Counted from the stretch's first letter, positions 15,936 through 33,169 are shown. The stretch is DNA of 53,367 nt from Candidatus Aenigmarchaeota archaeon CG_4_9_14_3_um_filter_37_18 (GCA_002789635.1 PFTQ01000044.1:837-54203), one strand, 5' to 3'. Numbers and translations are program-made. The notes: a model not told the origin generated them from the letters alone.

Positions 15936-16051
15936 GGGGTTTTGGCTCAACTTGGTAGAGCGTCAGGCTCCAGCACATCGTGCATGGAACGTTGATTTCA
16001 AGATGATATGAAGAAACCTGAAGGTTGGGGGTTCAAATCCCTCAGACCCCA
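15936..16051 (+). tRNA. tRNA-Trp (anticodon CCA) with a 42-nt intron (15974..16015) at the canonical 37/38 position
   Basis: Acceptor GGGGTTT/AGACCCC, D arm GCTC..GAGC, anticodon stem TCAGG/CCTGA interrupted after CTCCAG, T arm GGGGG-TTCAAAT-CCCTC. Confidence 0.85.
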
Positions 16052-17547: not shown

Positions 17548-18000
17548 CTACTGGCTCTTTGTGAAATTAATGAACATGAATCCCAAGTGAATATCATCAT
17601 CTGAGTATCTGATCGAAACTGGGGTTTTAAAACTTGGTTTGAAGTCCCCTCCTATAACCCATTCTTTATTGTTGTCAAGGTCAGTGACTTTTATTCTATA
17701 GATATTATCAGGATAGGATATCTCGGAGAATAGCGGGGTAGGGTTTGCTGCTAATGAGTCAAGCTTGCCCTTGTCCAAGACTCCCCTGTGTATTGTGCTA
17801 TCGGTGTAAGCCATTTTTTCAGAAGAGAGCAGGACATTCGATAGAATAACCCTTCTCCTCAATATTTCATTTTCTTCTACTGTTACTTTTACCCCTTGGC
17901 CTCTTGAGATGAAGAAGAAAACTAGCATCCCTACAAGAGCAACTGTAAGCAAGCCTACTAGCATATGAGAAAGGCTTGTCGCCTGCGCTTTTGTCCTCAT
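17548..18000 (-). CDS. type IV pilin-like protein (class III signal)
   Basis: MRTKA/QATSLSHMLVGLLTVALVGMLVFFFI N-terminus. ATGA overlap with the upstream pilin gene. Confidence 0.6.
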   Translation of the reverse strand: MRTKAQATSLSHMLVGLLTVALVGMLVFFFISRGQGVKVTVEENEILRRRVILSNVLLSSEKMAYTDSTIHRGVLDKGKLDSLAANPTPLFSEISYPDNIYRIKVTDLDNNKEWVIGGDFKPSFKTPVSIRYSDDDIHLGFMFINFTKSQ

Positions 18001-18401
18001 TTCCCATCAACCTTATACTTTTCAACGCCATTCACAACTGTCTTTTCGATTGTAAAATCTTTAGCATCTGAAAATGAGCCAGAAACATCCACTAGAACAG
18101 GATCAGACGAATCTTGCTTCCCGCTATTGAATTCCCTTGAAGCAGCAACCTCCCTATTCGATATGCCGACATCATAACTGTTATCGGAAGAAACCTTGTA
18201 TCTTATCATGATATCTCCAGGAGCTGCTGCGCTTATTGAAACTAGTGCTGCAAGATCCTTCGAAACGACTTCTGGCGAATCTATTGTGAACATGCTAATC
18301 GCTTCCTGTATGGTTGGGATAATAACAGGTATTAAAGCCACTAAAATCACCATAATACCTATTATTGAAAAAACTTCTGTTGTTTCAGCCTGGCCTTTCA
18401 T
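17997..18401 (-). CDS. type IV pilin-like protein (class III signal)
   Basis: MKG/QAETTEVFSIIGIMVILVALIPVII: short basic leader, Gly at -1, then a hydrophobic helix. Confidence 0.65.
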   Translation of the reverse strand: MKGQAETTEVFSIIGIMVILVALIPVIIPTIQEAISMFTIDSPEVVSKDLAALVSISAAAPGDIMIRYKVSSDNSYDVGISNREVAASREFNSGKQDSSDPVLVDVSGSFSDAKDFTIEKTVVNGVEKYKVDGK

Positions 18402-18479: not shown

Positions 18480-19379
18480 ATGAGAAAATTAATACTATTG
18501 GGTTTTTTGGGATTAGTTCTACTCTTTTCTGGCTGTGATAATCAGACTACAAATGGGTGCAGCGACAGCGGCCTGAAGCTTGTGGACTACAATGTTTATC
18601 CTCTCGAAAAAATCTATCAAGGAGATATAGTGGCGTTTGCATTCTGGCTTGAAAACAAAGGCAGCTCTACTGCGGGGAATGTTAAAGTCGACTTCTTTGA
18701 TACGCCTGGCTTTGATGTAACAAGGCTCGAATGCCAAGAAAATCCATCCGGAGGCAAGGAATGCAATTTGGGGGAGATACTTTCTGAAGAAGGCTGCCTA
18801 GGCGAAATGAGACAGGTAAAAACTGAGTTGAGGGCTAGAGGTTCCGGGGACAATACTGTCAGCTTTGCTGTTATATATAATTACCATGGCAATTCCCTGC
18901 TTTCATTTGGTATTTGGGAGAAGAATTCAAAAAACCAGTATGGAAACAAACGCATTGGAAGCACATATGGGCCTGTTAAAGTTGAGATAAACCCAGGCTT
19001 CTTGATGAGCAGAATAGTTGACGACAGGAAGCAAACAACCACTGAATGGGTGGAAGAAGGCCAGAGATTCACTGTTAACATTAATGTCAGGGAGAGCGGA
19101 AATTTTGGCCAAAGCTCATCAAAAACATCAATATCAAACTTTAAGGTAAAGCTCAATTATTTAGAGCCTATAGCTGATGGGAAATGCGATTTTATTCTGA
19201 GCGGGGAATATTTAGTGCCAAAAGAATCTATTGAAGTCCCTACAAAGAAGCCTTTAAAATGTGATTTAAAAGCTAATGATAATATCGGGCAGGAATGGAT
19301 TACCGGCGGGATAGAGGTGGATTATGATTATGAGTATAGCTTTGTCAAGCAGCAAACCTTCAAGATAAACACCGAATAA
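18480..19379 (+). CDS. secreted lipoprotein-like protein with a CARDB-like module
   Basis: MRKLILLGFLGLVLLFSGC lipobox-like signal. YQGDIVAFAFWLENKGSSTAGNVKVDFF module. Confidence 0.6.
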   Translation: MRKLILLGFLGLVLLFSGCDNQTTNGCSDSGLKLVDYNVYPLEKIYQGDIVAFAFWLENKGSSTAGNVKVDFFDTPGFDVTRLECQENPSGGKECNLGEILSEEGCLGEMRQVKTELRARGSGDNTVSFAVIYNYHGNSLLSFGIWEKNSKNQYGNKRIGSTYGPVKVEINPGFLMSRIVDDRKQTTTEWVEEGQRFTVNINVRESGNFGQSSSKTSISNFKVKLNYLEPIADGKCDFILSGEYLVPKESIEVPTKKPLKCDLKANDNIGQEWITGGIEVDYDYEYSFVKQQTFKINTE

Positions 19380-19416: not shown

Positions 19417-20742
19417 ATGGATGACGAGGAAAGGATTAAAAGGCTAGCGGAATTAGCCAGACAAAAAGAAGAAATGGAAAGAAAAAGGCTAGCCGAGCAG
19501 CAGAATCTTCAAGGCAGAGACCAAAAAACCCAACAAGAACTAAAAGAGAAACAACTGCAGGAACTCAAGAGGCAGCAGGAATTAAGCCAAAGAATGGGTG
19601 CCCCTAGTGGGGGACAGCCTGGATATCAGTCATCTTCTCCTCAAAAAGATTCAACTGTTAAGTATATTGCAATAGTTCTTGTTATTGCTGTTGTAGGCTT
19701 TTTCGGATATAGGTATAAGGATGATATATTATTTGAGGGAAGTAAAATCCTGCAATCCATAGAGAGAATGCTTCCGGATGACCTTTTGAAGTCTTGGTCT
19801 TGTATATTGGGGACTTTAACAGGGAAAAAATCAGCTGATGAATGCTTCGGAAATGTCCCCCCAATAATAACGAATCAGAATGATTTTATTGATGTGAAAT
19901 TTGGCTCTGGAGATGGATATCCCCTAAACCCAGAAAGATTGCAAAAATATTCGCTGCCTGTTAGGATTTCAAACAGCAAGGAAAAAGCTTTGAATGTTGA
20001 GGTTAATGGTGTGCTTCATTGCACTGTTGAATCCCCGCTTATGGATGGTGATATTGAAGAGTCTTTTAATTTAAAGGCTTCTACTCCTTCCTTCAGAATA
20101 GAGAAAGATGAAGTGTCATTAAGGCTTGAAAGCGAGGAAGCACTGCCATGCACTCTGAAAGCGTGCACTAATGCTGAAGTTATTGCAAGCTATTCAGACC
20201 AGAACGATTTTACAACTTCATTTACATTAGGGAAGACAAGGCAGGACGCATTAAAAACTCAAATAAAATCAGAAACAAGCCCTGGTCCTATTTCTATAAG
20301 AGCTGAGTTTCATCCCCTGAATTATTATTATCTTGATCAGAATGTTCAAGAAACTGAAGTTATTTTTACATTCACAAATAAAGGAACCGGAAAAGCAGAT
20401 ATAGCTAGTTTTCAGGTAGGGGTAGATGAAGATACAAAAGATTTTTTTAGCAGTTTTGGCCCCTGCTCATGCTCTTGTCATGAAGATTTTAATAAAATGA
20501 TTGGCGAAGCAAAAGAATTTAGTATAAACTCCGATGGGAAGAATGGAATGGATGTGATTTTAGACCAGAATTCTAGATGCGAATGCCTATGTGATTTTAA
20601 GATCAACGAAAATAAAGTTAATGGCTTGCCAGATTATGGAGCTAGCAAAACAGCAAATTTCTATTTTAGTGTTTTTTATAAATTTGACAGGACTGAAAAA
20701 TATGCAGGTTTGGCTCTTCAGGGGGATAAGTGCAGTGATTAA
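19417..20742 (+). CDS. type II membrane protein with cytoplasmic K/E/Q coiled coil, one TM and a Cys-containing ectodomain
   Basis: N-terminal EERIKRLAELARQKEEMERKRLAEQQ..., TM segment YIAIVLVIAVVGFFGY, and a 340-aa external part. Confidence 0.6.
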   Translation: MDDEERIKRLAELARQKEEMERKRLAEQQNLQGRDQKTQQELKEKQLQELKRQQELSQRMGAPSGGQPGYQSSSPQKDSTVKYIAIVLVIAVVGFFGYRYKDDILFEGSKILQSIERMLPDDLLKSWSCILGTLTGKKSADECFGNVPPIITNQNDFIDVKFGSGDGYPLNPERLQKYSLPVRISNSKEKALNVEVNGVLHCTVESPLMDGDIEESFNLKASTPSFRIEKDEVSLRLESEEALPCTLKACTNAEVIASYSDQNDFTTSFTLGKTRQDALKTQIKSETSPGPISIRAEFHPLNYYYLDQNVQETEVIFTFTNKGTGKADIASFQVGVDEDTKDFFSSFGPCSCSCHEDFNKMIGEAKEFSINSDGKNGMDVILDQNSRCECLCDFKINENKVNGLPDYGASKTANFYFSVFYKFDRTEKYAGLALQGDKCSD

Positions 20743-20767: not shown

Positions 20768-23047
20768 TTAACCTAACCTTGAAATAAAATCATTCCAATC
20801 AAAAGCAGGGCCCGGATCAAATTTTCCTGATGTTACTTCATCATGGCCTATGATATGAGTTCTGTCTACTGTAATGCCGGAATTTCTTCTAATAATGTCA
20901 GAAACAAGCCCGATCAAAGAATTCATTTGTTCTTCAGGGTAGGCCTCCCAGTAATCAGTGTTGCCTCGAAGAGCATGCGCAAGGAATTTGCATCTGTCTG
21001 AATTTACACCTAACTTGTCATCGCACAAATAGCCATAATTAACAACTTCTATGCCTATTGATCTTGGGTTCATCCCTTCAATGCAATTGGGATCAGATTG
21101 GGTTTTTGTGCATCCAGCATGCCAAGCACTATATTTCTCATCAACAAGCCTGTATATTGTCCCATCTCTGTCTACAACATAATGAACACTCGCTTTTCTA
21201 TTTTTATCATCTGCAAGCGTATCCAGCGTTGGACCAATGTCCCTTGCTGTGTAATGTATCACAACCCTGTCTATAATTGTCTCCCATCTTGTGCTGTCAT
21301 ATTTCGACGAGTCAGCTGGGTGGTCTATTATATCGAGAGAACCGCCAATAGTTGTTGTCGTGGTTGTAACTTCTTTCTTCTGGCATCGTTTCCAATCCTG
21401 ATAGCCAGGGTAAACTGTATCATCTACATACCTTAATATTATCTTCGCTTTACCGCCTGGATCATTGCAATATACATTATATTTTTCGCACATAGCTTTA
21501 CAGGCATCAGTCATCACCTGCATGTTGTTCATGCTTTCCCACTTACTGTCTCCTGCTATTTTTATAGCCTCTTGAATAGTAGCCTGGCCTCCATTATAAG
21601 AAGCTAACCCTAATTTTATCAGGTTTTCAAAGTCATAATTATTGTAGCTTCCCATGGAAGATAATTTACTTTTCAGTATTCTGACGCCGCATCTTATGTT
21701 TAACCCAGCACTAGTTGAAAGCTCTTCCCATGAGCCTATGCCATCGCAGCCTTTTGCGGATGATAGAGTTACCTGCATTATACCGCATCCGCTCGACGCA
21801 GAACAGGTTGTAAACTGATTCCAATTGCTCTCCTGTGTTATTACTGCAGCTACCAAATAAGTGGCTTCCTCTAAAGGTATGTAATCTGTCAAGCCCTCGG
21901 TTGAAATCGCACTAACTATTGTGTCTTTGTATGAATTATATTTGTTGACATGCGGGGAAGCTAAGCCCGGGCAAGAAACCAATTCACCAGGCACACCATT
22001 ACTTCTACAGGCTAAGTCTGGGCATTTATTCACACCAGAAGCGCTCCATGAGCAGGAATCAGTGCATGAAGAATCCATACAGTAGCAGTTTGTACCGGGA
22101 ATTATTGACATTTCTGTTATAGATTCCTTTATTTGGCATGTATTTTTATCAGGCTCAAACTCATAATTCCCGACAACAACATAAAATTTCAACCCAATCT
22201 TCTTGTAATCAGTTTTCTTCGTTAAGTAGTCGTAGACAGGATATTCCTGGGAATTGTCTGTTATTTCAACCAAATACCTTAAAGCAAATTTTGACTCATC
22301 TCCATCTAGAACATAGATTTTGCTTGGCGTTAATCTTATTTCTATATCTTCAGAATTGTAGCCTGTTTTTCCTGGGATTCCTTCATTCAATTCTCCTCCA
22401 AGGTTGTGGATCTTATCCATAGCTTCATTATAAGTCGCGGAATCTGGAATTTTCTTCCCTAAAATATCATCATCAAGAAATTCTTTTTTTCCTATCTCAA
22501 ACAGCCTTAACGTTCTGGGTTCAGCGTCAGCTGCAATTTCCAATCCTTCATTAATTTCAACCATCGGCCTTTTCAACCCTAACGCTTCAGCAGCAACTGC
22601 TTTAATTGTTGTTTTGCCTGAAGACCCGCTAAGATCAACAGAATTATATTCCGGGATATCAACTTCCCCTTTAAAAGATTTTGCGTATTTGTTGAAGAAG
22701 TGCAGCGTTGTTGTTTCCAAGTTTTTTTCATACTCAGGAAATTCAATGCTGTCATATATCCTCCAGTAGGGTATGCAGTCATAGCAGTCTGTTTTTTCCA
22801 GGTTATAATAGCCGCCCTGGTCAGAAACAAGATAGGATGATTGGTAGAAGGAATTCTTCAGGGACTGGGTCAAGGATATTTTCGACAGCTCCACTTTGTT
22901 TATCCCGTCTATGATGTTCACTTCCATTGCTGCTCTTTTTGAGATGTTTGACCTGTTAAAAAAAGAGATAAACACTACTCCAGAAACCATGATCAATCCA
23001 AACATCCCTATTAAAAGAATGGAAAATGGGCCTATTCCTTTTCTCAA
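20768..23047 (-). CDS. pilin-like protein fused to an SLT lytic transglycosylase domain and an N-acetylmuramoyl-L-alanine amidase (amidase_2/PGRP) domain
   Basis: N-terminus MRKG/IGPFSILLIGMFGLIMVSGVVFISFF. SLT motifs VITQES, GCGIMQVT, LNIRCGVRIL, LASYNGG (nt about 21413..21925). TTTTTT linker. Amidase_2 motifs VVIHYTA, SVHYVVDRDGTIY, SAWHAG, NPRSIGIEVVN, IIGHDEV..GKFDPGPAFDW (nt about 20771..21295). Confidence 0.85.
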   Translation of the reverse strand: MRKGIGPFSILLIGMFGLIMVSGVVFISFFNRSNISKRAAMEVNIIDGINKVELSKISLTQSLKNSFYQSSYLVSDQGGYYNLEKTDCYDCIPYWRIYDSIEFPEYEKNLETTTLHFFNKYAKSFKGEVDIPEYNSVDLSGSSGKTTIKAVAAEALGLKRPMVEINEGLEIAADAEPRTLRLFEIGKKEFLDDDILGKKIPDSATYNEAMDKIHNLGGELNEGIPGKTGYNSEDIEIRLTPSKIYVLDGDESKFALRYLVEITDNSQEYPVYDYLTKKTDYKKIGLKFYVVVGNYEFEPDKNTCQIKESITEMSIIPGTNCYCMDSSCTDSCSWSASGVNKCPDLACRSNGVPGELVSCPGLASPHVNKYNSYKDTIVSAISTEGLTDYIPLEEATYLVAAVITQESNWNQFTTCSASSGCGIMQVTLSSAKGCDGIGSWEELSTSAGLNIRCGVRILKSKLSSMGSYNNYDFENLIKLGLASYNGGQATIQEAIKIAGDSKWESMNNMQVMTDACKAMCEKYNVYCNDPGGKAKIILRYVDDTVYPGYQDWKRCQKKEVTTTTTTIGGSLDIIDHPADSSKYDSTRWETIIDRVVIHYTARDIGPTLDTLADDKNRKASVHYVVDRDGTIYRLVDEKYSAWHAGCTKTQSDPNCIEGMNPRSIGIEVVNYGYLCDDKLGVNSDRCKFLAHALRGNTDYWEAYPEEQMNSLIGLVSDIIRRNSGITVDRTHIIGHDEVTSGKFDPGPAFDWNDFISRLG

Positions 23048-23463
23048 TTAATCACCAAAACCAAATTTTCAACCAGCTTGTCTGGATTGTAGGGTAAAGT
23101 TATGTTCACGCTTGAAGTGTATTCCTTAGGTGTGCAGCCAGAGCTCTTTGCCAACACTTTGGAAGGGGTTGATAGTTTGTAGCATCTGCCCTCAACTAAT
23201 TTGTCCAGCTTATCCTTGAGGAATGTTAGGTCGTCTGGCTGGCCAAAGGCTAGGTTGTCGCCGATCAATTCCTGGACAGTTTTTCCGTCGTAAGTAGAGG
23301 TTAGCAATGAGATTAGAATCATCTGCGTATTTTCATAATTCTCTTCATACTGGATTACTCTCAGGGAAGGGGCTGTAATAAATTTAGGGACTATTAAGAT
23401 TCCAAATACCAAGAACACAGTAAAAACCAGGACAACAAATGGTATGTTCAATTGGCCTTTCAT
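23044..23463 (-). CDS. type IV pilin-like protein (class III signal)
   Basis: MKG/QLNIPFVVLVFTVFLVFGILIV. ATGA overlap with the downstream hydrolase gene. Confidence 0.65.
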   Translation of the reverse strand: MKGQLNIPFVVLVFTVFLVFGILIVPKFITAPSLRVIQYEENYENTQMILISLLTSTYDGKTVQELIGDNLAFGQPDDLTFLKDKLDKLVEGRCYKLSTPSKVLAKSSGCTPKEYTSSVNITLPYNPDKLVENLVLVIN

Positions 23464-23659: not shown

Positions 23660-23935
23660 TCAGCCTAAATTTTTACAATCATCTATGCTGTTCGGCTTTT
23701 CTATACCGAGGCTTTCACAATCTTCTGGTTTTATATCTCCCCAATCTCCGGGGTCCTGGCCTTTCAGAGTCCATCTTTCGCAGTAATTCATGTATTTTGC
23801 CGTGCATGTTGCTTTGTTGGCTTCGATCGGAGTTTGGCCTATAAAAAACCAAAAAGTAACAAGGGTAAAAATAAGAAGTAAACCCATCACAGCTATTAAA
23901 AACAGCGTGTGGGTTGCTATTGCTTTTGGTGACAT
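23660..23935 (-). CDS. short four-Cys pilin-like protein
   Basis: MSPKA/IATHTLFLIAVMGLLLIFTLV. CTAKYMNYCERWTLKG is paralogous to the next gene. Confidence 0.6.
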   Translation of the reverse strand: MSPKAIATHTLFLIAVMGLLLIFTLVTFWFFIGQTPIEANKATCTAKYMNYCERWTLKGQDPGDWGDIKPEDCESLGIEKPNSIDDCKNLG

Positions 23936-23969: not shown

Positions 23970-24251
23970 TTAGCCTAAAACTCCTTCACAATAAGCTCGT
24001 GTGAGAATCGCCCAACTATAACTTGAACAATCTGGATTTTTCGCTACAAATGTTTCTGTAGCCGCAAGAGTTGAATAACCTTTTCTCGACCAATCTGCAC
24101 AAAACGTGAATGCTTTCGTTTGACAGAACTTTTCAGTTGATGCTCCTCCACCCCTTCCAATCCATGTCCAAACCAAATATCCTAAGCCGACAATAACTAT
24201 CAAACCTATTACAAGACCAACAATAGTTTGTGTTGCTACTCCTTTTGCCAT
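23970..24251 (-). CDS. short four-Cys pilin-like protein
   Basis: Preferred start MAKG/VATQTIVGLVIGLIVIVGL lies 4 nt after AGGTGA (24256..24261). CQTKAFTFCADWSRKG is paralogous to the 23660..23935 gene. Confidence 0.65.
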   Translation of the reverse strand: MAKGVATQTIVGLVIGLIVIVGLGYLVWTWIGRGGGASTEKFCQTKAFTFCADWSRKGYSTLAATETFVAKNPDCSSYSWAILTRAYCEGVLG

Positions 24252-24322
24252 ACATTCACCTAGCAATTATTTTTGGATTTTTAGTTATTAAATATATCGG
24301 TTGCAAACAAGTAAGTAAAAAT

Positions 24323-26857
24323 TCATTTCACCGCAACACAATTTCCACCAGAGCATATTAAACCTCTGCAGCAATTATGAGTAGGGTCGCAAAATGTTGT
24401 TAATTCACTACATTGCTCACAATAGATATTAACGCAATTGTTTGAACAGCAATCTGAATGCTCTAAACATGGCCTGCTTGGCATGTCGCCTATGCATAAT
24501 TCTGCTCCGCAAGTACCATCTGGGTTGCAGGTTTCATAACCTTCGCAACATGACTTGAAGCCCAAACCGTCAGAGCATGATTGGCAATATAGATCATTTT
24601 GATGGCTTATGCAAGTAGGCTCTGAATTAGAAAACTGATTGCAAACACCGGATAGGGCTATACTATGATGTCCAATTATAAAATGATAATCGAGCTGCTG
24701 TTTGTTTCTATTTATGAACCAAGAGTCAAACCAGACATAATTAACAAAACTGCCATCTGAGCATTTAGCCAAATAACATTGCTTAATAGAACCGTCATTG
24801 AAAGTAACGCAAATTGTTTTACCACCAGCGCCATCTACTATGTCTATTTTATCAACATAATCAGGTAAATCTAAACGCGTTGTTGTATACTGGCTAGCTG
24901 AGCATGAGTCTATATGTATTTTTTGGATTTTGTCCATAAAGTCATGGGCATTAAGAGTCAGGAATTCATTTTTATTCATGCAGGGTTTGAATCCTAAAGG
25001 ATTCCATTCACAGTCGCCTAACCCACACCCATCATGATTACATTCAAGATCATTCTTATAATCTGTGCAAGATTTAATTTTATCACAGTTGCATTCTACT
25101 TCACAAGCTTGACGGCCAATTTCAGCGTTGCTGATGCAGTCGCATTTAGAAAATGATCCGGAACAAATTGACTGACAAAAATCTAAACAATGTATCTGGA
25201 TATTACAGTTTGATCCAATACTAAGAGTTATTTTTCTTTGGCCAGCCGCAGGCGGTGTGGGAGGCATCAATTTATTTTCTAATGTTAGAACAAATTTATT
25301 TCCGCTTCCAGTTATAAATCCTTGGCTATCGTCAAAGCCGAAGTATTGGATGTCGCTATCAGGGCATACAGCATCAAAACAATACCTGCCTGCAGTAGAT
25401 CCATCCCTGCCATTGAAATATAAGCAAATATCTTTTTTCGCGGGCGTTCCGATATTTTCAACAGTCATCTTATCAATGCTATTTGGAAGCTGGATCGTAC
25501 GGCCAAAACTGGCGCCAATAGGAAGGCTGCATAAATCACTTATCATTTGTTTCATCTCCCCTATAAATGGGCTGTTAAACTCCAATTGCTTTTTATGGCA
25601 TATTGTAGTTCCTGGAAAAGTCTTCCCGCCGCCAATAGCAGGCAAATTTTCAGAGTATATGAAGTATTCGTCATTATTCAGGTTGCATGAACAGTAATCA
25701 GAACCAAGAAAACCGCATTTTTCACATGATGTACCCTCTTTTCCATCCTCTAATAATTCTCTTGATATAAAAAGCCATAGTTGACCTCCGCCAAGAAGAG
25801 AAGAATGCTCGCATTCCTCATTTGAAAACTCCAAATTAGCCTCTTTTCCTTCTTCATCTCTTACTTTATTTAAAATATCATCTTTTTTCAGATTAATTGG
25901 ATTTTCCAATTTAATGTTAATCGGATTCATTTTAGCATCATCGCCGCAAATCTTGCCATCTTCTTTTTTAGTATCAGTCCATTCCTGCTTGCAGAAATCA
26001 GTCTTACAACTCTTTTCAACGCTATCAGCATCTATCCATGTTAAATCTTCAATTTTAGATGACCCGCACCCTTCCTTGCATCTGTAGTAAGAGCAGTCTA
26101 TAGCTTTTTGAATATTCGTGCTTTCGGTTTCAGTCTTCTCGCAGATGAAAGTTGCAGGAAAAACAGAATTGGGCAATATATTAAATGTATTATAGCCTGG
26201 AGGTAGCTCTGTTGATATGGAATAATCCCCAGGAATCAAATTACATTCGCAGTAGTCTAGTTCTGGAAAACATTTTTTACACGCAATATTTTCATCTGTC
26301 CCTTCTAACAAACTTTTTGATATATAAATCCATAGATTGGTAGGTGGGTTTAAATTTATCCCATGAAGTTTGCAATCTTCACCAGCAATATCAATATTAG
26401 ATTTCACAACCTCTTTTAAAGCTTCACTCGTCTTTAAAGTAATCATCCTATCCATTGTAAATGTAACTGGATGAGCTTTAGTATCATCATCGCATATCTT
26501 TCCATCCTCTTCTCCAGTATCTGTCCACTCTTTGTTGCAGAAATCATCCTTGCAACTCCATATCTTATCTTCAGAATCTTTCCATTGTAGCTTATCCAAT
26601 CCAGGTTTATCGCAACCATCTTTGCATCTATAATAAGAACAAGTTAAAGCAACTTGAAAACTTTTCGCAAGCCTTTGTGAAGCAGGATCCATTCCGAACA
26701 GCGACATTAAATAATCAAGAAAGCCGTTCATTATATTCTTTCCAGGGCCAAGAAGAAACCATGACATTACAACAATCAGCAAAACAGCTAATACGAGCTT
26801 ATACACCGTTTCTTCAGCCATGCCTTTGCTCAAATCAACACCCCGAACACATTCCAC
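24323..26857 (-). CDS. giant Cys-rich pilin-like surface protein with internal tandem duplications and a knottin-like C-terminus
   Basis: N-terminus ..LSKG/MAEETVYKLVLAVLLIVVM. The likely true start is TTG 26833, giving MSKG/MAEE, right after the upstream stop. Residues 66-241 and 247-421 are clear duplicates. There are more than 90 Cys. Confidence 0.7.
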   Translation of the reverse strand: MECVRGVDLSKGMAEETVYKLVLAVLLIVVMSWFLLGPGKNIMNGFLDYLMSLFGMDPASQRLAKSFQVALTCSYYRCKDGCDKPGLDKLQWKDSEDKIWSCKDDFCNKEWTDTGEEDGKICDDDTKAHPVTFTMDRMITLKTSEALKEVVKSNIDIAGEDCKLHGINLNPPTNLWIYISKSLLEGTDENIACKKCFPELDYCECNLIPGDYSISTELPPGYNTFNILPNSVFPATFICEKTETESTNIQKAIDCSYYRCKEGCGSSKIEDLTWIDADSVEKSCKTDFCKQEWTDTKKEDGKICGDDAKMNPINIKLENPINLKKDDILNKVRDEEGKEANLEFSNEECEHSSLLGGGQLWLFISRELLEDGKEGTSCEKCGFLGSDYCSCNLNNDEYFIYSENLPAIGGGKTFPGTTICHKKQLEFNSPFIGEMKQMISDLCSLPIGASFGRTIQLPNSIDKMTVENIGTPAKKDICLYFNGRDGSTAGRYCFDAVCPDSDIQYFGFDDSQGFITGSGNKFVLTLENKLMPPTPPAAGQRKITLSIGSNCNIQIHCLDFCQSICSGSFSKCDCISNAEIGRQACEVECNCDKIKSCTDYKNDLECNHDGCGLGDCEWNPLGFKPCMNKNEFLTLNAHDFMDKIQKIHIDSCSASQYTTTRLDLPDYVDKIDIVDGAGGKTICVTFNDGSIKQCYLAKCSDGSFVNYVWFDSWFINRNKQQLDYHFIIGHHSIALSGVCNQFSNSEPTCISHQNDLYCQSCSDGLGFKSCCEGYETCNPDGTCGAELCIGDMPSRPCLEHSDCCSNNCVNIYCEQCSELTTFCDPTHNCCRGLICSGGNCVAVK

Positions 26858-27077
26858 CTAAATTCCCTAAAAACCCAAGCAGCCCTTTGCAGAACATGCT
26901 ACATTTTATTCCTGCCATTATCCTCTCAACACTCTGGAAGACTATCTCTTTCGCCCCGGTCAAAAAAATCCACAATAAAGCTAAAGCTATTATTGCCAGA
27001 ACTAAGGATATTATTGTTGTTAATATGCTGCCTGAAACACCTTTTCCCACAATCTCATCCCCATAGTTTCGGAACAC
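26835..27077 (-). CDS. short pilin-like protein
   Basis: ..GKG/VSGSILTTIISLVLAIIALALL. The probable real start is GTG 27050 (MGKG/VSG..), 4 nt after the stop of the 44-aa ORF. Confidence 0.55.
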   Translation of the reverse strand: MFRNYGDEIVGKGVSGSILTTIISLVLAIIALALLWIFLTGAKEIVFQSVERIMAGIKCSMFCKGLLGFLGNLGGMCSGC

Positions 27078-27189
27078 CCTTTAAGATATTTATCGCCGAG
27101 AGATAAAATAAAGCTAACACTATAATCACCACTATCAGCAGGATAATAAACCAGATCATATACCTTGAAACATCTCCTTTGCTGTTCAT
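27055..27189 (-). CDS. 44-aa mini pilin-like ORF (not in the ORF track)
   Basis: MNSKG/DVSRYMIWFIILLIVVIIVLALFYLSAINILKGVPKLWG. Its ATG shares ATGA with the platform gene stop. Confidence 0.45.
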   Translation of the reverse strand: MNSKGDVSRYMIWFIILLIVVIIVLALFYLSAINILKGVPKLWG

Positions 27190-29141
27190 GCAACCCACAT
27201 CATCTTAATCATTGAAGTCAAAATCAGGTAGAGCACAATCATAGTGATTGAATAGATTATAATTGCGGTCAGCAGGTTTTTGCCTAAATCATATGTTCTT
27301 TGGATCTTCTCATCCCCATACTCTATTATGCTCATGAATATCGAAAGCATCACAACAACCTCTATCATATAAAACCCGACAATCAGCTGAAAATAATGAA
27401 TGGATATTATTTTATCGATGCTCAAAATATTCTTGAATATGTCCCCGCCTAGATCCCCGACAGGGCCATATGACCCTAAATTCCCCTGAACAGACTCTGT
27501 CCATCCGCTTAAGCTCAGCATCATGCTTATCATCATCGCAGTCAATGCAACAACAATTCCAGAAGACAAGGGCGCTAATGCCAGAGCCTGAATCTTCATC
27601 GTTGATATTACCTCAGAAAGAACATCCTTCAGATATTCTTCAACTTCAGATATATTCCTGAGATAGTTTGATATTGATATTAAAGATTGGGATAGGACAG
27701 CAGAGCCGGAAGAAGAGATTTCAGAGATGGCTTTTAGAATGGCTTTTATCAGGTTGGATGGGTACTGGTATATTGCGCCGTTCTTTTCGTTGAATACAGC
27801 GTTCTGAAAAGTCATCCCGAAGATCTGGATGTTGCTTATTATAGAGCCAAAGAGATCAGACACTTTCAATTCCTGTATTTTTGTCTTGATCTTGAGAATA
27901 TTGCTTTCAATTGAGCCGCCGCTTCTTATCTGGTGGCCTAACTGGAACAAGACCATATGCAATTCGCTCTCCATCTCAACAATCTTGTTCTTAGCCTTCA
28001 TCTTAGGCATGCTATCCAGGAAAGAGTATGAAATTATACCTCCGGAAACGCCAACTAAAACTAACAAAGAATAAAGCAACAAGCCAAAACTAAAGTGCTC
28101 TTGGGATGAAAGCAATTTATAAAGGCCGAACCCGGATAAAAGAATTATCATCAAAACTGGGATTATTATCTTCAGGCTAAAAATCTTCTGGAAAATGCTT
28201 TTCTTTATTTCAATTATCTCTGGCTGATGGAAAGTTGTTGGCCTTTTAGTCAAAAATGATCTCATCAGCAGGAATATAACAATCGGCAGCGAGATATTAT
28301 AGCCTATAACAAGAGCTATTGGCTTTACAGTGTCAGGCATAAAAACCGCTATCATCGGGAAGAAAATCAGCCCTATTATCGGAAGCAAAATCCCAAGGGC
28401 GTTCAGGAGTGTTAGAGATGACCTCAACTCTCTAGAATAATCTTTCATCTGGTTTTTTGACCCCAAAAGGACTATTTCAACAGCTTCCTCCAGAACCTTA
28501 TCCCTTTCTGCGTAGCTTTGATAAAGGGATGTTTTTATCAGGTTGATCGCCTGCGTGAATTCCTCGTTCCCAAGCTTCCATTTTTTTATGAAGTCGTCCA
28601 AAGCAACTTCCACTGAATAATATTTTCCATTATAGACATCCCACATTAATTCAGACAAATCGCTTCCCATAGGCCCTTTCAGATTCGTTGCGGCAAAAAT
28701 AACTGCATTCTCTAGATTGGACCTGACTTTCATCGAAACCGTCAAATAAAGCACAGTCAACACCATCTCAGAAGTTGCCTTTATTTTGTATTGCGTGACG
28801 TAATAGGAAGGGTATCTGAAAATGAAGTAGCCCATGCCTAAAATACCGGAGAATAGAATAAGCATTAATTTGAACGGGATTATTCCTATGGCTGTCAATA
28901 ATACACTCAACAAGGAGAAGCCAGCAGTAAAAAGAATTGTGAATGAAAGAACGCCTGCAGGAGTTATATAAAGGTGGCAGAAATCTATTGGCTCTTGGAA
29001 TTTTTTCTGCATCTTCTCAGGGAATGGAATCGATAAAATTCTCTCTGAAAAATTGCACAGCTTCTCGTAAACAGATGTTTTCTTTGCTTTTAATTTTGAT
29101 TGAAGAAGCTCTTCTTTTGTTTTTTGAATATCAAACACCAA
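27186..29141 (-). CDS. FlaJ/TadC/PilC-like polytopic platform protein of a type IV filament system
   Basis: 651 aa with two clusters of TM helices separated by soluble helical regions. It lies directly downstream of, and overlaps, the secretion ATPase gene, as in fla/pil operons. The call rests on architecture and context, not on a motif. Confidence 0.6.
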   Translation of the reverse strand: MVFDIQKTKEELLQSKLKAKKTSVYEKLCNFSERILSIPFPEKMQKKFQEPIDFCHLYITPAGVLSFTILFTAGFSLLSVLLTAIGIIPFKLMLILFSGILGMGYFIFRYPSYYVTQYKIKATSEMVLTVLYLTVSMKVRSNLENAVIFAATNLKGPMGSDLSELMWDVYNGKYYSVEVALDDFIKKWKLGNEEFTQAINLIKTSLYQSYAERDKVLEEAVEIVLLGSKNQMKDYSRELRSSLTLLNALGILLPIIGLIFFPMIAVFMPDTVKPIALVIGYNISLPIVIFLLMRSFLTKRPTTFHQPEIIEIKKSIFQKIFSLKIIIPVLMIILLSGFGLYKLLSSQEHFSFGLLLYSLLVLVGVSGGIISYSFLDSMPKMKAKNKIVEMESELHMVLFQLGHQIRSGGSIESNILKIKTKIQELKVSDLFGSIISNIQIFGMTFQNAVFNEKNGAIYQYPSNLIKAILKAISEISSSGSAVLSQSLISISNYLRNISEVEEYLKDVLSEVISTMKIQALALAPLSSGIVVALTAMMISMMLSLSGWTESVQGNLGSYGPVGDLGGDIFKNILSIDKIISIHYFQLIVGFYMIEVVVMLSIFMSIIEYGDEKIQRTYDLGKNLLTAIIIYSITMIVLYLILTSMIKMMWVA

Positions 29142-31389: not shown

Positions 31390-31436
31390 TAACTAAATTA
31401 TATTTGTTCAATTTTACAATAATTATTATTGATTTC

Positions 31437-31835
31437 ATGGTATTTGAAAGAAAACCACAAACTCAGTTCAATCAGGTGAACACCGAAGTAGTAAGGATTA
31501 CAAATGATAACACAAGAAGGATTAGAATCCTTGAACAAAGCTTAGATTCAGCGAGAACCAGAATAAGCTCCCTTGAAGAAAGAATGATAGATGAAATGGG
31601 CGACATCAAAAAATGGATGGATCAATTGTCTTTAGATATAAAGGAAATTTCAAAAGAATTAAAGGAGATAAGGAGCGAGTTGCTGAGGGTGAATAAGGAT
31701 CTTGAAAAAACAGCCAGAAAAACAGAGGTCAAGGAGCTTGAAAGCCTGTTAGACCTGTATGATCCGATAAAATCACATTTTATAACAAGGGGAGAAGTGA
31801 TGAGGATTTTAGAAAGAGAATTGAATAAAGTTTAA
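31437..31835 (+). CDS. coiled-coil protein, unknown function
   Basis: Heptad-rich sequence RIRILEQSLDSARTRISSLEERMIDEMGDIKKWMDQLSLDIKEISKELKEIRSELLRV. ATG 31437 is preferred over TTG 31404. Confidence 0.55.
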   Translation: MVFERKPQTQFNQVNTEVVRITNDNTRRIRILEQSLDSARTRISSLEERMIDEMGDIKKWMDQLSLDIKEISKELKEIRSELLRVNKDLEKTARKTEVKELESLLDLYDPIKSHFITRGEVMRILERELNKV

Positions 31836-31889
31836 TACTCAGAAAAGAAAATTTAAATTATGAAATCAATTATTATTAAGGTGTAAAAA

Positions 31890-32591: not shown

Positions 32592-32628
32592 ACCAAGTTA
32601 TTTATTGTCACTTTCTTAATTATTTTTC

Positions 32629-33165
32629 ATGGTCAATCCTTTTCAGATAGTTGCAGAGAGGCTTAGAGATTTAGGGTTCTTTGATTTCTTTATACCTTGG
32701 GTGATGACGTCGGCCCTTTTATATGCGCTTCTTAGAAAATCTAAAATATTCGGCGACGATGCAATAGTAATAAATTCTGTGCTGTCGATATCTGTGTCTT
32801 TTTTTACATGGGGTTTTATAGTGCTTGCTGGCGGGGGCGGCATAGGGGCTGCTTTATCTAAATTTGTCACAGAAATAGTTCTTATTGGGATAGGATTTTT
32901 ATTCATAGTCCTGATTGCCGGCATATTTATTCCAGATTTAAAGGATTTCTTAAGCACTCTCCCGAATAAAGGTGCGACATTCTTGATAATAGCTCTTGTG
33001 ATAGGAGTGACTCTGATGATTGGAAGTGGTTTATTCAATTTGGGCTCCGCGATATATAATCTTCTTAGTGCATTTGGGAAAGTTCCTGGAGGGGATGCGG
33101 GATTGTTGATTGTGGCTATTCTTATTTTAGTTCTTTTACTCATAATTATATCGATAGTAAGGTGA
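32629..33165 (+). CDS. membrane protein, paralog 1 of 3 (unknown family)
   Basis: Shared N-terminal motif L..LGFFDFFIPWVMTSALLYALLRKSKIFG plus 4 TM helices. Confidence 0.6.
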   Translation: MVNPFQIVAERLRDLGFFDFFIPWVMTSALLYALLRKSKIFGDDAIVINSVLSISVSFFTWGFIVLAGGGGIGAALSKFVTEIVLIGIGFLFIVLIAGIFIPDLKDFLSTLPNKGATFLIIALVIGVTLMIGSGLFNLGSAIYNLLSAFGKVPGGDAGLLIVAILILVLLLIIISIVR

Positions 33166-33169
33166 TTGG

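What the first reader, a model, noticed from the sequence alone, without database searches (positions are those of the whole stretch)
20768..23047. Pilin-like protein carrying two bacterial-type murein hydrolase domains in an archaeon
Seen in sequence. The 759-aa ORF starts MRKG/IGPFSILLIGMFGLIMVSGVVFISFF: a short basic leader, a Gly, then about 25 hydrophobic residues, which is a class III / type IV pilin-like signal. Residues about 395-490 carry the family-1 lytic transglycosylase signature in the canonical order: VITQES (catalytic Glu-Ser), GCGIMQVT, LNIRCGVRIL, LASYNGG. After a TTTTTT linker, residues about 590-759 carry the amidase_2/PGRP signature: VVIHYTA, SVHYVVDRDGTIY, SAWHAG, NPRSIGIEVVN, IIGHDEV..GKFDPGPAFDW. 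It is the last gene of a minus-strand operon that begins with a FlaI/PilB-type ATPase and a FlaJ/PilC-type platform protein. It overlaps the preceding pilin gene by ATGA. Established knowledge. SLT (Pfam PF01464) cleaves the murein glycan strand, and amidase_2 (PF01510) cleaves the MurNAc-L-Ala bond. Archaea do not synthesise murein. All housekeeping markers in the window are archaeal. Inference. The enzyme cannot serve to remodel the cell's own wall, as VirB1 or FlgJ do in bacteria. The simplest reading is a pilus-tethered or pilus-delivered wall-breaching enzyme aimed at a bacterial partner or prey of an episymbiotic archaeon. I know of no characterised archaeal type IV filament with this architecture.
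Basis: partly seen in the sequence, partly recalled or inferred. Interest (0 to 1): 0.9.

Follow-up and report, generated by a model that had tools for sequence, protein, structure and literature searches.

The report
Archaeal pilin carrying bacterial-wall-cutting enzymes
A tiny-genome (DPANN, probably Aenigmatarchaeota) archaeon encodes, as the last gene of a pilus operon, a pilin-like protein fused to two intact enzymes that cut bacterial cell wall, and relatives swap in other wall-cutting enzymes, which suggests a filament built to breach or digest bacteria.

Summary
ORF 20768-23047(-) encodes 759 aa with Pfam SLT (E=3e-10) and Amidase_2 (E=1e-29). The catalytic residues are intact: E406, and H598/E667/H735/K742/D744. 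One correction: the overlap with the upstream gene is TTGA (TTG start), not ATGA.

It is not an assembly artefact. The same locus recurs in eight independent archaeal assemblies next to Alba/PCMT, and composition is native.

The N-terminal ~300 aa is a carrier module found in at least 315 protein clusters. It has an invariant Lys-Gly, then about 22 hydrophobic residues and a long helix. In every locus examined it is the last gene of the pilin run. Most members are bare carriers of about 290 aa. A minority carry C-terminal cargo, mostly murein hydrolases (SLT, Amidase_2, M23, NlpC/P60, M15_4, C39-like, glucosaminidase). Cargo is swapped between close relatives and between carriers in the same locus.

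Best reading: an archaeal "modular pilin" that presents exchangeable murein hydrolases on a type IV filament, aimed at bacterial walls.

Prepilin cleavage, filament incorporation and the bacterial target are all inferred. Murein hydrolases in DPANN and modular pilins in bacteria are both published. I did not find this combination in the literature searched, so I rate it a new variant of a known kind.

The parts
20768..23047 (-). Whole gene: 759-aa modular pilin-like protein (carrier + Cys-rich linker + SLT + poly-Thr + Amidase_2); TTG start
23036..23047 (-). Leader M-R-K-G; predicted prepilin-peptidase site after G4
   Evidence: K3 and G4 are invariant in alignment A3 despite leaders of different length. 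125 of 156 family representatives have [KR][GA] plus a hydrophobic stretch, with KG|I most common. Cleavage itself is inferred.
22958..23035 (-). Hydrophobic alpha1-N segment (residues 5-30); the only TM-like segment in the protein
   Evidence: It is modelled as part of one continuous helix spanning residues 6-75.
22130..23047 (-). Carrier module (residues 1-306): long N-terminal helix plus a beta-rich globular domain; invariant C91 and C304
   Evidence: Alignments A2 and A3. Models have pLDDT around 80 in the globular part, pTM 0.74. 315 representative clusters match. No structural match in PDB or BFVD.
21986..22129 (-). Cys-rich low-confidence linker (residues 307-354; also present in P0005)
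21380..21985 (-). SLT / GH23 lytic-transglycosylase module (residues 355-556); catalytic Glu E406 encoded at 21830-21832
   Evidence: Pfam hit. Foldseek top hits are MltF, MltE, MltC and Slt70. In the profile search of the PDB, E406 aligns with the catalytic Glu of goose-type lysozyme and Slt70, and it is invariant in 8 sequences.
21350..21367 (-). Poly-Thr linker (T561-T566)
   Evidence: Similar poly-Thr linkers precede cargo in P0003, P0005 and the L005 GH5 pilin.
20771..21340 (-). Amidase_2 module (residues 570-759; Pfam match 592-747): Zn ligands H598, H735, D744; catalytic E667; K742
   Evidence: Pfam hit. Alignment to P. aeruginosa AmpDh2 (4bj4, E=2e-21) and E. coli AmiD. Residue numbers. 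The same residues are kept in P0002 and P0004.
23044..23463 (-). 139-aa pilin-like gene (MKG|QLNIPFVVLVF...), overlaps the target by TTGA
   Evidence: Orthologues of 139-147 aa lie directly upstream of the carrier in L001, L002, L004, L005, L008 and L011.
23660..23935 (-). 91-aa pilin-like gene (PKA|IATHTLFLIAV...), candidate major pilin
   Evidence: Paralogous to 23970-24266. Conserved 90-100-aa genes occur in all related loci. The major-pilin role is inferred from size only.
23970..24266 (-). 98-aa pilin-like gene (AKG|VATQTIVGLVIG...), candidate major pilin
24323..26857 (-). 844-aa Cys-rich protein with a pilin-like N-terminus (SKG|MAEETVYKLVLAV...) and a tandem internal duplication
   Evidence: no Pfam hit. 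Positional orthologues of 218-769 aa occur in relatives.
26835..27077 (-). 80-aa pilin-like small gene (GKG|VSGSILTTIISLVLAII...)
   Evidence: Small genes occupy the same slot in L001, L002, L005 and L012.
27186..29141 (-). 651-aa polytopic membrane protein, putative platform (FlaJ/TadC-like by position and topology only)
   Evidence: No HMM match. TM clusters are separated by two long soluble stretches. Orthologues of ~640-655 aa follow the ATPase in relatives.
29131..31389 (-). 752-aa T2SSE-superfamily assembly ATPase (FlaI/TadA-like)
17997..18401 (-). 134-aa pilin-like gene (MKG|QAETTEVFSIIG...); its L005 orthologue carries a ~270-aa C-terminal extension
17548..18000 (-). 150-aa pilin-like gene (RTKA|QATSLSHMLVG...); orthologues carry GH5 (L005) or beta-helix + SLT-like cargo (L004)
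19417..20742 (+). Convergent 441-aa protein (coiled-coil N-terminus, one TM segment, extracellular domain); orthologues carry NlpC/P60 (L004) or glucosaminidase (L005)
18480..19379 (+). 299-aa lipoprotein-like protein (LLFSGC), conserved partner of the convergent gene
   Evidence: Its role is unknown.

Best explanation
The gene encodes an archaeal modular type IV pilin, that is, a carrier plus an enzymatic warhead. Shown here: a short basic leader ends in an invariant Lys-Gly and is followed by about 22 hydrophobic residues and a predicted ~70-residue helix with a beta-rich head (the carrier). Behind flexible Cys-rich and poly-Thr linkers sit an SLT/GH23 glycan-strand cleaving module and an AmpDh2/AmiD-type MurNAc-L-Ala zinc amidase, both with complete catalytic residues. 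Inferred: a prepilin peptidase encoded elsewhere in the genome cuts after G4. The helix then docks the protein into a filament of the small pilins (91-139 aa) assembled by the operon's ATPase and polytopic membrane protein. Because the subunit is bulky, is encoded last, and is present once per locus, it most probably sits at the tip, as proposed for bacterial modular pilins and GspK. On contact with a bacterium, the SLT module cleaves MurNAc-GlcNAc bonds, and the amidase strips stem peptides. From established knowledge, AmpD/AmiD-type amidases accept the anhydro-muropeptides that lytic transglycosylases produce. Together they would open the sacculus locally, for attachment, cytoplasmic access or nutrient release. 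Across the family the warhead is exchangeable, so lineages can re-tool for different wall chemistries.
For: Domains and catalytic residues. Carrier family: K3 and G4 are invariant despite variable leader length; 315 representatives match, almost always from their residue ~1; 125 of 156 carry [KR][GA] plus a hydrophobic stretch; the target has a single TM-like segment; the models show helix 6-75 followed by a beta domain. Stand-alone carriers of 262-318 aa occupy the same operon slot. The carrier is the last gene of the pilin run in all 8 loci examined, with the ATPase and ~650-aa membrane protein upstream wherever the contig extends that far, and Alba/PCMT alongside in most. Cargo census of 54 long members: SLT 7, M23 5, Amidase_2 3, NlpC/P60 3, C39_2 2, M15_4 2, glucosaminidase 2, Amidase_6 1, which covers glycan, amide and peptide bonds of murein (per-member map). 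Recent cargo swaps: P0010 and P0011 are 76% identical over 625 aa, then SLT versus glucosaminidase; P0006 and P0007 are collinear to the end of SLT, then C39-like versus M23; P0004 (Amidase_2) is 63% identical to the cargo-less P0012. The same cargo types appear on other carriers in the same locus. Composition and codon usage are native. The modules resemble phage lysins, including a 'lytic tail fiber protein' family. The window encodes no murein synthesis genes. Bacterial modular pilins are modelled as tip-exposed (PMC8179133), and large accessory-domain minor pilins mediate host binding in episymbiotic Saccharibacteria (PMC11623550).
Against: No prepilin peptidase (Peptidase_A24) is encoded in the window, and signal cleavage is untested. 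The carrier's globular domain matches no solved pilin or viral structure (best Foldseek E=0.08 against PDB and 0.004 against BFVD, TM-scores 0.2 or lower). The platform protein has no HMM support. Only about 11% of family representatives carry recognisable murein hydrolases (17 of 156). Some pilin-like carriers in this locus type bear GH5 or beta-helix lyase cargo instead, and one large-carrier family member hits Polysacc_lyase, so the system is not murein-specific. All cultivated DPANN have archaeal hosts, and Li et al. 2021 argued against bacterial hosts for Aenigmarchaeota (PMC8407114). No partner organism is identified. The amidase module was poorly modelled.
Confidence: 0.5

Rival explanations
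1. Nutrient scavenging rather than attack. The surface- or filament-displayed hydrolases digest detrital bacterial wall (necromass, shed sacculi) and other polymers. This releases amino sugars and stem peptides for an auxotrophic small-genome archaeon. The pilus locus would then be a display scaffold for depolymerases.
For: Relatives graft GH5 cellulase/mannanase and pectate-lyase-type beta-helix domains onto pilin-like carriers in the same locus, and a polysaccharide-lyase domain occurs in one long member of the large-carrier family. From established knowledge, a lytic transglycosylase followed by an AmpD/AmiD-type amidase is the order of steps in muropeptide recycling and would free peptides. 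Published DPANN work frames such enzymes as recycling of microbial carbon (PMC9723730).
Against: The cargo is dominated by the same families that phages and bacterial predators use for local wall breaching (SLT, M23, NlpC/P60, glucosaminidase, amidase). Tethering an enzyme to the cell limits its reach to objects the cell touches. No uptake or catabolic genes for MurNAc, GlcNAc or muropeptides are encoded in the window.
Confidence: 0.22
2. Bindosome-like surface display. The class III signal serves only for export and membrane or S-layer anchoring of the enzymes, as with Sulfolobus sugar-binding proteins and the Bas system, without incorporation into an extended pilus.
For: In archaea, class III signals are known on non-filament surface proteins (established knowledge; reviewed in PMC4858521). 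The ATPase gives a weak hit to the bindosome ATPase BasE (54 bits). The carrier's head domain resembles no solved pilin. A second, TM-anchored carrier in the locus bears the same cargo types.
Against: The BasE hit is far below the model's cut-off of 1000 bits and weaker than the FlaI hit (120 bits) and the TadA hit (112 bits). The locus encodes seven further pilin-like genes, including very small ones typical of filament subunits. The carrier also exists without any cargo as a conserved core gene of the locus, which fits a structural role.
Confidence: 0.18
3. Antibacterial defence or competition. The enzymes kill or deter neighbouring bacteria, by analogy with horizontally acquired lysozymes in other archaea, without any symbiotic or predatory dependence.
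For: The hydrolases are intact and extracellular. The amidase module's nearest relatives outside the family are mostly bacterial. From my own knowledge, a precedent exists: a GH25 lysozyme transferred to Aciduliprofundum (Metcalf et al. 2014); I did not check this paper here.
Against: Integration into a conserved core pilus locus, with frequent re-tooling of cargo across at least eight assemblies, suggests a central lifestyle function rather than an accessory weapon. Tethering limits the enzymes to contact range.
Confidence: 0.07
4. The substrate is not bacterial murein. It could be pseudomurein of a methanogen host, another GlcNAc polymer such as chitin, or a wall polymer of the archaeon itself.
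For: GH23 includes chitinases, and weak Foldseek hits to the Ralstonia GH23 chitinase appear (E about 0.1). All cultivated DPANN have archaeal hosts.
Against: From established knowledge, pseudomurein has beta-1,3 links, lacks MurNAc and D-amino acids, and is resistant to lysozyme-type enzymes and to MurNAc-L-Ala amidases. The family's cargo set (Amidase_2, M15_4, M23, NlpC/P60, glucosaminidase) is a murein toolkit. No pseudomurein-binding repeat or C71 peptidase was detected. No wall-synthesis genes occur in the window or in the roughly 150 kb of related loci whose gene tables were listed.
Confidence: 0.03

Closest known systems
Modular type IV pilins of bacteria (S. sanguinis PilB/PilC; Raynaud et al. 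2021, PMC8179133)
   Same: An N-terminal pilin module acts as carrier, linked by a short linker to a grafted functional module. The subunit is probably tip-exposed. It is the largest pilin of its locus. Architectures are highly variable.
   Different: This one is archaeal, with a class III K-G signal and no bacterial G-1/E+5 N-methylation motif (IPR012902). The carrier head is about 270 aa and of unrecognised fold. The modules are catalytic murein hydrolases rather than adhesion modules, and two are arranged in tandem. A search of that paper finds no occurrence of 'archaea', 'hydrolase' or 'peptidoglycan'.
[quoted passage not shown] 2015 and 2021, PMC8204110; Vigneron et al. 2022, PMC9723730)
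   Same: They are DPANN archaea encoding an SLT/GH23 domain normally absent from archaea. They are predicted to be extracellular and are interpreted as binding or degrading bacterial walls of hosts or prey.
   Different: Those proteins reach 3,000 aa, come from other phyla, and are not described as pilin-fused or as part of a pilus operon. The present family is in Aenigmatarchaeota-type genomes, is built on a pilin-like carrier, and pairs or replaces SLT with six other murein-hydrolase families. Homology between the two families was not tested.
Specialised lytic transglycosylases and hydrolases of bacterial trans-envelope machines (VirB1, FlgJ, T4P-associated BfpH / R64 PilT)
   Same: A GH23 domain (plus a second hydrolase in FlgJ) is genetically tied to a filament or secretion machine.
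   Different: Those enzymes cut the producer's own sacculus to make room for the machine, and they are periplasmic proteins, not pilin subunits. Here the producer has no murein, so the target must be external. This comparison rests on established knowledge, not on a test made here.
Virion-associated peptidoglycan hydrolases and tail-fibre depolymerases of phages
   Same: The enzyme families are the same (SLT, M23, NlpC/P60, glucosaminidase, amidase; beta-helix lyases and GH5 on other carriers). They are mounted at the distal end of a filament-like structure, are modular, and are frequently swapped. PHROG hits include 'lytic tail fiber protein' and endolysins.
   Different: This is a chromosomal core locus of a cellular organism flanked by housekeeping genes. 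The carrier is a pilin-type protein assembled by a T4P ATPase, not a tail protein. There are no viral genes nearby.
Sulfolobus bindosome (Bas) substrate-binding proteins with class III signals
   Same: Functional, non-structural proteins are exported with a pilin-type signal and depend on a dedicated T4P-like ATPase, membrane protein and small pilin-like proteins.
   Different: The cargo is hydrolytic enzymes, not solute-binding proteins. The ATPase is not a BasE equivalog (54 bits against a cut-off of 1000). The carrier is a conserved ~300-aa module rather than just a signal peptide.
PilX1/PilX2 minor pilins of episymbiotic Saccharibacteria (PMC11623550)
   Same: An ultrasmall, host-dependent organism has, as the largest pilin of its locus, one with a C-terminal accessory domain. 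These are implicated in host binding through cell-wall glycans.
   Different: Those are bacterial pilins with lectin-like or beta-propeller modules, and no murein-hydrolase catalytic domains are reported. Host and symbiont are both bacteria.

Membership tests
SLT / GH23 family-1 lytic transglycosylase (PF01464) | Profile match above the curated threshold | tested here: met
   40.1 bits against a cut-off of 21.3, E=3e-10, residues 397-502
SLT / GH23 family-1 lytic transglycosylase (PF01464) | Catalytic Glu in the E-S motif at the end of the first helix | tested here: met
   E406-S407 is invariant in 8 family sequences. It aligns with the RES motif holding the catalytic Glu of goose-type lysozyme 1gbs/153l, and the profile also matches Slt70 1qsa.
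SLT / GH23 family-1 lytic transglycosylase (PF01464) | Lysozyme-like alpha-helical fold | tested here: met
   The modelled domain has pLDDT around 80. Foldseek top hits are MltF 4oxv (E=2e-4), MltE, MltC and Slt70, all at probability 1.00.
SLT / GH23 family-1 lytic transglycosylase (PF01464) | Non-hydrolytic cleavage giving 1,6-anhydroMurNAc products (as opposed to g-type lysozyme hydrolysis) | not testable with these tools
   This needs muropeptide analysis of digests. By sequence, the profile scores goose-type lysozyme and Slt70 similarly.
Amidase_2 / PGRP zinc amidase (PF01510) | Profile match above the curated threshold | tested here: met
   103.9 bits against a cut-off of 26, E=1e-29, residues 592-747
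Amidase_2 / PGRP zinc amidase (PF01510) | Zn ligands His-His-Asp plus the catalytic Glu and Lys | tested here: met
   H598, H735, D744, E667 and K742 align with the conserved HYT, IGIE, GH and K.DPGP motifs of AmpDh2 4bj4 (E=2e-21). Their identification as Zn ligands and catalytic residues rests on published AmpD/AmiD structures recalled from memory. Numbering. They are conserved in P0002 and P0004.
Amidase_2 / PGRP zinc amidase (PF01510) | MurNAc-L-Ala amidase activity | not testable with these tools
   Requires a biochemical assay.
Archaeal type IV pilin / class III signal peptide protein | Short charged leader ending in [KR]-[GA], followed directly by about 20 hydrophobic residues | tested here: met
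   The sequence reads MRKG|IGPFSILLIGMFGLIMVSGVVFISFF. K3 and G4 are invariant. 125 of 156 representatives fit the pattern. There is a single TM-like segment at residues 9-27. FlaFind and PilFind themselves were not available.
Archaeal type IV pilin / class III signal peptide protein | Extended N-terminal alpha-helix followed by a globular head ('lollipop' shape) | tested here: met
   AF2 predicts helix 6-75 (35-76 in the carrier-only model), then a beta-rich domain with pLDDT around 80. Confidence is moderate and the alignments are shallow.
Archaeal type IV pilin / class III signal peptide protein | Head domain structurally related to known pilins | tested here: inconclusive
   No significant PDB or BFVD match. 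Pilin head domains are notoriously variable, so this neither supports nor excludes membership.
Archaeal type IV pilin / class III signal peptide protein | Encoded alongside a T4P assembly ATPase and a platform protein | tested here: met
   The ATPase is confirmed. The adjacent ~650-aa polytopic protein is conserved in relatives, but its platform identity rests on position and topology only.
Archaeal type IV pilin / class III signal peptide protein | Processing by a prepilin peptidase (PibD/FlaK/EppA, Peptidase_A24) present in the genome | not tested
   No A24 peptidase is among the window's ORFs.
Archaeal type IV pilin / class III signal peptide protein | Physical incorporation into a filament | not testable with these tools
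   Needs filament purification with proteomics, or cryo-ET.
Bacterial modular pilins sensu Raynaud et al. 2021 (IPR012902 + extra domain) | Pilin module + linker + grafted functional module | tested here: met
   The order is carrier 1-306, linker, SLT, poly-Thr, Amidase_2. Carrier-only homologues exist.
Bacterial modular pilins sensu Raynaud et al. 2021 (IPR012902 + extra domain) | Bacterial N-methylation motif with Glu at position +5 | tested here: not met
   The mature N-terminus would be IGPFS..., with no Glu at +5, and neither Pfam nor NCBIfam reports a pilin or N-methylation motif. It works like a modular pilin but is not a member of the bacterial family.
Sulfolobus bindosome (Bas) system | BasE-type ATPase | tested here: not met
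   NF053672 scores 54 bits against a cut-off of 1000. The FlaI and TadA models score higher.

The most novel reading that the evidence does not exclude
Aenigmatarchaeota-type DPANN archaea build a dedicated type IV filament whose terminal subunit is an exchangeable enzymatic warhead. Functionally it would be a cellular counterpart of a phage tail tip. The archaeon would use it to dock onto and pierce the murein wall of living bacteria. That would be the first molecular machinery for an archaeon-on-bacterium episymbiosis or predation, and the first enzymatically active pilin family in archaea.
Probability: 0.35. Interest if true: 0.9.

Novelty: new variant of a known kind. Interest (0 to 1): 0.72.

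Why it matters
Every cultivated DPANN archaeon lives on another archaeon. Whether some live on, or prey on, bacteria has been an open suggestion since murein-type transglycosylases were first noticed in their genomes. The one dedicated Aenigmarchaeota study set aside bacterial hosts (PMC8407114).

This locus turns that suggestion into a concrete, testable mechanism with three parts. There is a defined protein with two assayable activities. There is a defined tether: a K-G signal and a carrier module found in at least 315 clusters. And there is a defined machine, the operon.

The cargo swapping offers a read-out of target wall chemistry per lineage. For example, M23, M15 and NlpC/P60 act on different peptide bonds. 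That could guide the search for partner organisms.

For type IV filament biology, it extends the "modular pilin" principle to archaea and to catalytic modules. On the practical side, the family is a source of diverse, disulfide-rich murein hydrolases.

Tried and rejected
- **SLT against the PDB:** a single-sequence phmmer search found nothing. A family profile was needed.
- **Carrier fold:** Foldseek of the carrier-only model against PDB and BFVD gave no usable match. Its fold therefore could not be tied to any solved pilin, GspK-type minor pilin or viral protein.
- **Neighbouring genes:** Pfam at E<=1, NCBIfam and PHROGs found nothing for the putative platform protein, and Pfam and PHROGs found nothing for the 844-aa Cys-rich protein or the two convergent neighbours. 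Pfam also found nothing for the four small pilin-like genes scanned.
- **Genome-collection scan:** scanning the GTDB genome collection with the carrier alignment returned only two loci labelled 'archaeon', so taxonomic spread could not be mapped this way.
- **Cluster-member look-up:** it returned almost no names.
- **Full-length word-based homologue search:** it found only 11 proteins. The real family size appeared only with the exhaustive profile search.
- **Full-length AF2 model:** the amidase part is poor because non-homologous cargo was misaligned in A1. I did not use that part.
- **Chimeric assembly or recent graft:** rejected on conserved synteny in eight assemblies and native GC3 and codon usage.
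- **Prophage or mobile element:** rejected because the flanks are housekeeping genes and no viral families match apart from the lysin domains themselves.
- **Archaellum:** rejected as a label. No FlaB/ArlB, FlaH or FlaF/G models match, and the ATPase is far below the FlaI equivalog cut-off.

Full report
**1. The observation**

ORF 20768-23047 on the minus strand encodes 759 aa beginning MRKGIGPFSILLIGMFGLIMVSGVVFISFF. Pfam gives Amidase_2 (residues 592-747, E=1e-29, 103.9 bits against a cut-off of 26) and SLT (residues 397-502, E=3e-10, 40.1 bits against 21.3). The protein has one TM-like segment, residues 9-27.

Two details need correcting. The overlap with the upstream gene is TTGA, using a TTG start with GGTGA a few bases upstream, not ATGA. 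It is a polytopic protein with TM clusters separated by two long soluble stretches, and it always follows the ATPase. The label is therefore plausible but rests on position and topology.

**2. Host and integrity of the locus**

The window carries an archaeal SRP RNA and an intron-containing tRNA. It also encodes eIF-1A, aTrm56, Taw1 and TYW2, diphthamide synthase, geranylgeranyl reductase, Alba and PCMT. It has no murein-synthesis genes and no A24 prepilin peptidase.

GC, GC3 and codon usage of the carrier, SLT and amidase parts all lie inside the spread of the window's housekeeping genes.

The same gene order recurs in independent assemblies: ATPase, a ~650-aa membrane protein, small gene(s), a Cys-rich protein, three or more small pilin-like genes, then the carrier gene. 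In most of these loci a convergent pair, further pilin-like genes, Alba and PCMT follow. The assemblies come from NCBI, ENA and JGI (L001, L002, L004, L005, L007, L008, L011, L012), and some contigs are cut short. NCBI labels two relatives Aenigmatarchaeota/Aenigmarchaeota. Chimeric assembly and recent grafting are excluded.

**3. The catalytic modules are intact**

The amidase module aligns best with the periplasmic amidases AmpDh2 of P. aeruginosa (4bj4, E=2e-21) and AmiD of E. coli. The Zn ligands H598, H735 and D744, the catalytic E667, and K742 are all present (numbering), and they are conserved in P0002 and P0004.

A profile of eight family SLT modules matches goose-type lysozyme (E=6.6e-6) and Slt70 (E=2e-4). 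The invariant E406 lies on the catalytic Glu. The modelled SLT domain (pLDDT around 80) finds MltF, MltE, MltC and Slt70 by Foldseek.

Against phage families, the amidase part hits endolysins and the SLT part hits a 'lytic tail fiber protein' family.

The amidase module's closest relatives outside the family are at most 41% identical. They are mostly bacterial, plus one Woesearchaeota MAG. This fits a bacterial origin that is not recent. No tree was built.

**4. The N-terminal 300 residues are a carrier module of a large family**

A word-based search found only ten relatives beyond the window's own cluster (11 hits in all). Together they already showed that the N-terminal region (and, in six of the ten, SLT) is kept while the last module changes: Amidase_2, M15_4, C39-like, M23 or glucosaminidase. 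Searching with the N-terminal region alone found proteins of 262-318 aa that consist of nothing else.

An exhaustive profile search found 315 representative clusters at E<=1e-3 and 190 at E<=1e-10. Nearly all match from their own residue ~1.

In the alignment of the window's module with seven stand-alone members, K3 and G4 are invariant although leader lengths differ (MRKG, MSNKNRWKKG, MRKIQKTDLAKMMNKG, MVGMRKG). C91 and C304 are also invariant. Of 156 representatives, 125 have [KR][GA] followed by a strongly hydrophobic 18-mer, and KG|I is the commonest junction. Most exceptions are N-terminally truncated gene calls.

AF2 models give one continuous helix (residues 6-75 in the full model) followed by a beta-rich head with pLDDT around 80 and pTM 0.74. 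The head matches nothing in PDB or BFVD.

The pilin assignment therefore rests on four things: the signal, the helix, the stand-alone homologues, and the constant position as last gene of a run of pilin-like genes. It does not rest on fold homology.

Seven other genes in the window's locus have the same kind of N-terminus:
- 26835-27077: GKG|VSGS
- 24323-26857: SKG|MAEE
- 23970-24266: AKG|VATQ
- 23660-23935: PKA|IATH
- 23044-23463: MKG|QLNI
- 17997-18401: MKG|QAET
- 17548-18000: TKA|QATS

**5. Cargo is exchangeable and mostly murein-directed**

Pfam scanning of 54 long family members gave SLT 7, M23 5, Amidase_2 3, NlpC/P60 3, C39_2 2, M15_4 2, glucosaminidase 2 and Amidase_6 1. It also gave single hits to papain-like protease, polysaccharide lyase and fn3. 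A local phmmer map found 17 of 156 representatives with murein-hydrolase cargo. Most members are bare carriers of 280-450 aa.

Swaps are recent:
- P0010 and P0011 are 76% identical over 625 aa, nearly identical over the first 400. They then diverge completely into SLT versus glucosaminidase.
- P0006 and P0007 are collinear to the end of SLT, then C39-like versus M23.
- P0004 (Amidase_2) is 63% identical over the whole carrier to the cargo-less P0012.

The same cargo types also sit on other carriers in the same locus:
- The convergent TM-anchored neighbour (window 19417-20742, no cargo) carries NlpC/P60 in L004 and glucosaminidase in L005. In L002 it ends in a bare poly-Thr linker.
- The orthologue of window 17548-18000 carries GH5 after a TTTT linker in L005, and beta-helix plus an SLT-like domain in L004.
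- L012 has a 1444-aa GH5 + pectate-lyase-type beta-helix protein in a pilin slot.

The locus is thus a platform for displaying exchangeable depolymerases. Among these, murein hydrolases covering glycan, amide and peptide bonds dominate.

**6. Mechanism**

Shown: the protein is extracellular and single-anchored, has a pilin-type N-terminus and two intact murein hydrolases, and sits in a conserved T4P-like locus in an archaeon that encodes no murein genes in the regions seen.

Inferred:
- A prepilin peptidase cuts after G4.
- The protein is incorporated through its N-terminal helix into a filament of the small pilins.
- It sits at the tip. This is argued from its size, its single copy and last position, and by analogy with bacterial modular pilins and GspK (PMC8179133) and with the accessory-domain minor pilins of episymbiotic Saccharibacteria (PMC11623550).
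- The SLT module cuts glycan strands of a contacted bacterium and the amidase removes stem peptides. From established knowledge, AmpD/AmiD-type amidases accept the anhydro-muropeptides that lytic transglycosylases generate, so the pair is a natural sequence.

I put about 0.5 on the full chain (filament-presented, contact-dependent breaching of bacterial walls). I put about 0.9 on the narrower statement that this is a pilin-signal-tethered, extracellular, active murein hydrolase.

**7. Rivals**

- **Scavenging of detrital murein and other polymers (0.22).** It is favoured by the GH5 and lyase cargo in relatives and by the recycling-like enzyme order.
- **Bindosome-like surface display without a filament (0.18).** Class III signals on non-filament proteins are known in archaea, and the head domain is not recognisably pilin. 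However, the ATPase is not BasE-like, and the carrier exists as a cargo-less core gene.
- **Antibacterial defence (0.07).**
- **A non-murein substrate such as pseudomurein or chitin (0.03).** This is disfavoured by the composition of the cargo toolkit.

**8. What is known and what is new**

Murein-type lytic transglycosylases in DPANN genomes, read as tools against bacterial walls and as hints of bacterial hosts, are published for Woesearchaeota and Pacearchaeota (PMC8204110, PMC9723730, PMC10936187). None of the passages retrieved mentions a pilin signal or a pilus operon.

The 2016 census of archaeal T4P systems contains no occurrence of murein, peptidoglycan, transglycosylase, amidase or DPANN. 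The Aenigmarchaeota genomics paper describes 'archaellum homologs' and explicitly sets aside bacterial hosts. The modular-pilin survey was built on the bacterial IPR012902 motif, and a search of it finds no occurrence of 'archaea', 'hydrolase' or 'peptidoglycan'. Targeted searches for pilin-fused peptidoglycan hydrolases found nothing relevant.

Within the limits of that library, the combination appears undescribed: an archaeal modular pilin family whose modules are interchangeable murein hydrolases, embedded in a conserved pilus locus. I rate it a new variant of a known kind, with interest 0.72. It gives the question 'do some DPANN archaea live on bacteria?' a specific protein, signal and machine to test.

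Noticed in passing
window 24323-26857 (-): The 844-aa Cys-rich pilin-like protein contains a tandem duplication of a ~190-aa module (A[LI]xCSYYRCK[DE]GC ... KIC[DG]DD.K..P). The same module is inserted into the carrier of P0008, and it is the core of the positional orthologues in L006 (4163-4756) and L007 (5808-7490). No Pfam or PHROG family matches it.
   Followed up: partly
window 19417-20742 (+) and 18480-19379 (+): A conserved convergent pair lies next to the carrier gene: a coiled-coil/TM-anchored protein and a lipoprotein-like protein (LLFSGC). Orthologues of the first carry NlpC/P60 (L004 3138-5234) or glucosaminidase (L005 7557-9257). The L002 orthologue ends in a poly-Thr linker with no cargo, as if the module had been lost.
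   Followed up: partly
window 17548-18401 (-); L005 10275-12874; L004 6768-8264; L012 5652-9986: The two small downstream pilin-like genes are also carriers in other genomes. Cargo includes GH5 after a TTTT linker, an unknown ~270-aa extension, and NosD-type beta-helix plus an SLT-like domain. In L012 a 1444-aa GH5 + pectate-lyase-type beta-helix protein sits in a pilin slot.
   Followed up: partly
window 31404-34393 (+): Five genes transcribed divergently from the ATPase (143, 233, 178, 209 and 197 aa; coiled-coil and small membrane proteins, only sub-threshold Pfam hits) are conserved in number and size next to the ATPase in L001 and L011, and partly in L002. They may be accessory parts of the machine.
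   Followed up: no
window 9423-9830 (+): A DsbB-like disulfide-bond formation protein (PF02600, E=6.7e-11) is encoded here. This fits the unusually Cys-rich secreted proteins of the pilus locus: the target alone has 22 Cys, including the invariant C91 and C304.
   Followed up: no
window 39262-40113 (+): A patatin-like phospholipase (PF01734, E=2.5e-35; GGGARG and GTSAG motifs, no signal peptide). It is an acyl-ester lipase in an organism expected to have ether lipids, so it may act on bacterial-type lipids.
   Followed up: partly
window 15936-16051 (+): A 116-nt tRNA is found by the Rfam model but missed by ARAGORN. It is presumably an intron-containing archaeal tRNA.
   Followed up: no
L006 (MHEH01000087.1): A 10.7-kb contig binned as 'Nitrospirae bacterium RBG_13_43_8' carries this archaeal pilus locus, including carrier P0017. 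It is probably a mis-binned DPANN contig.
   Followed up: no
L007 1-3000: The pilus ATPase gene of this relative is interrupted by an intein (Intein_splicing + LAGLIDADG_3).
   Followed up: no
window 6614-8134 (-): A 506-aa protein with several Ig-like/fn3-like domain hits (FixG_C, Cep192-type). It is probably another surface protein.
   Followed up: no
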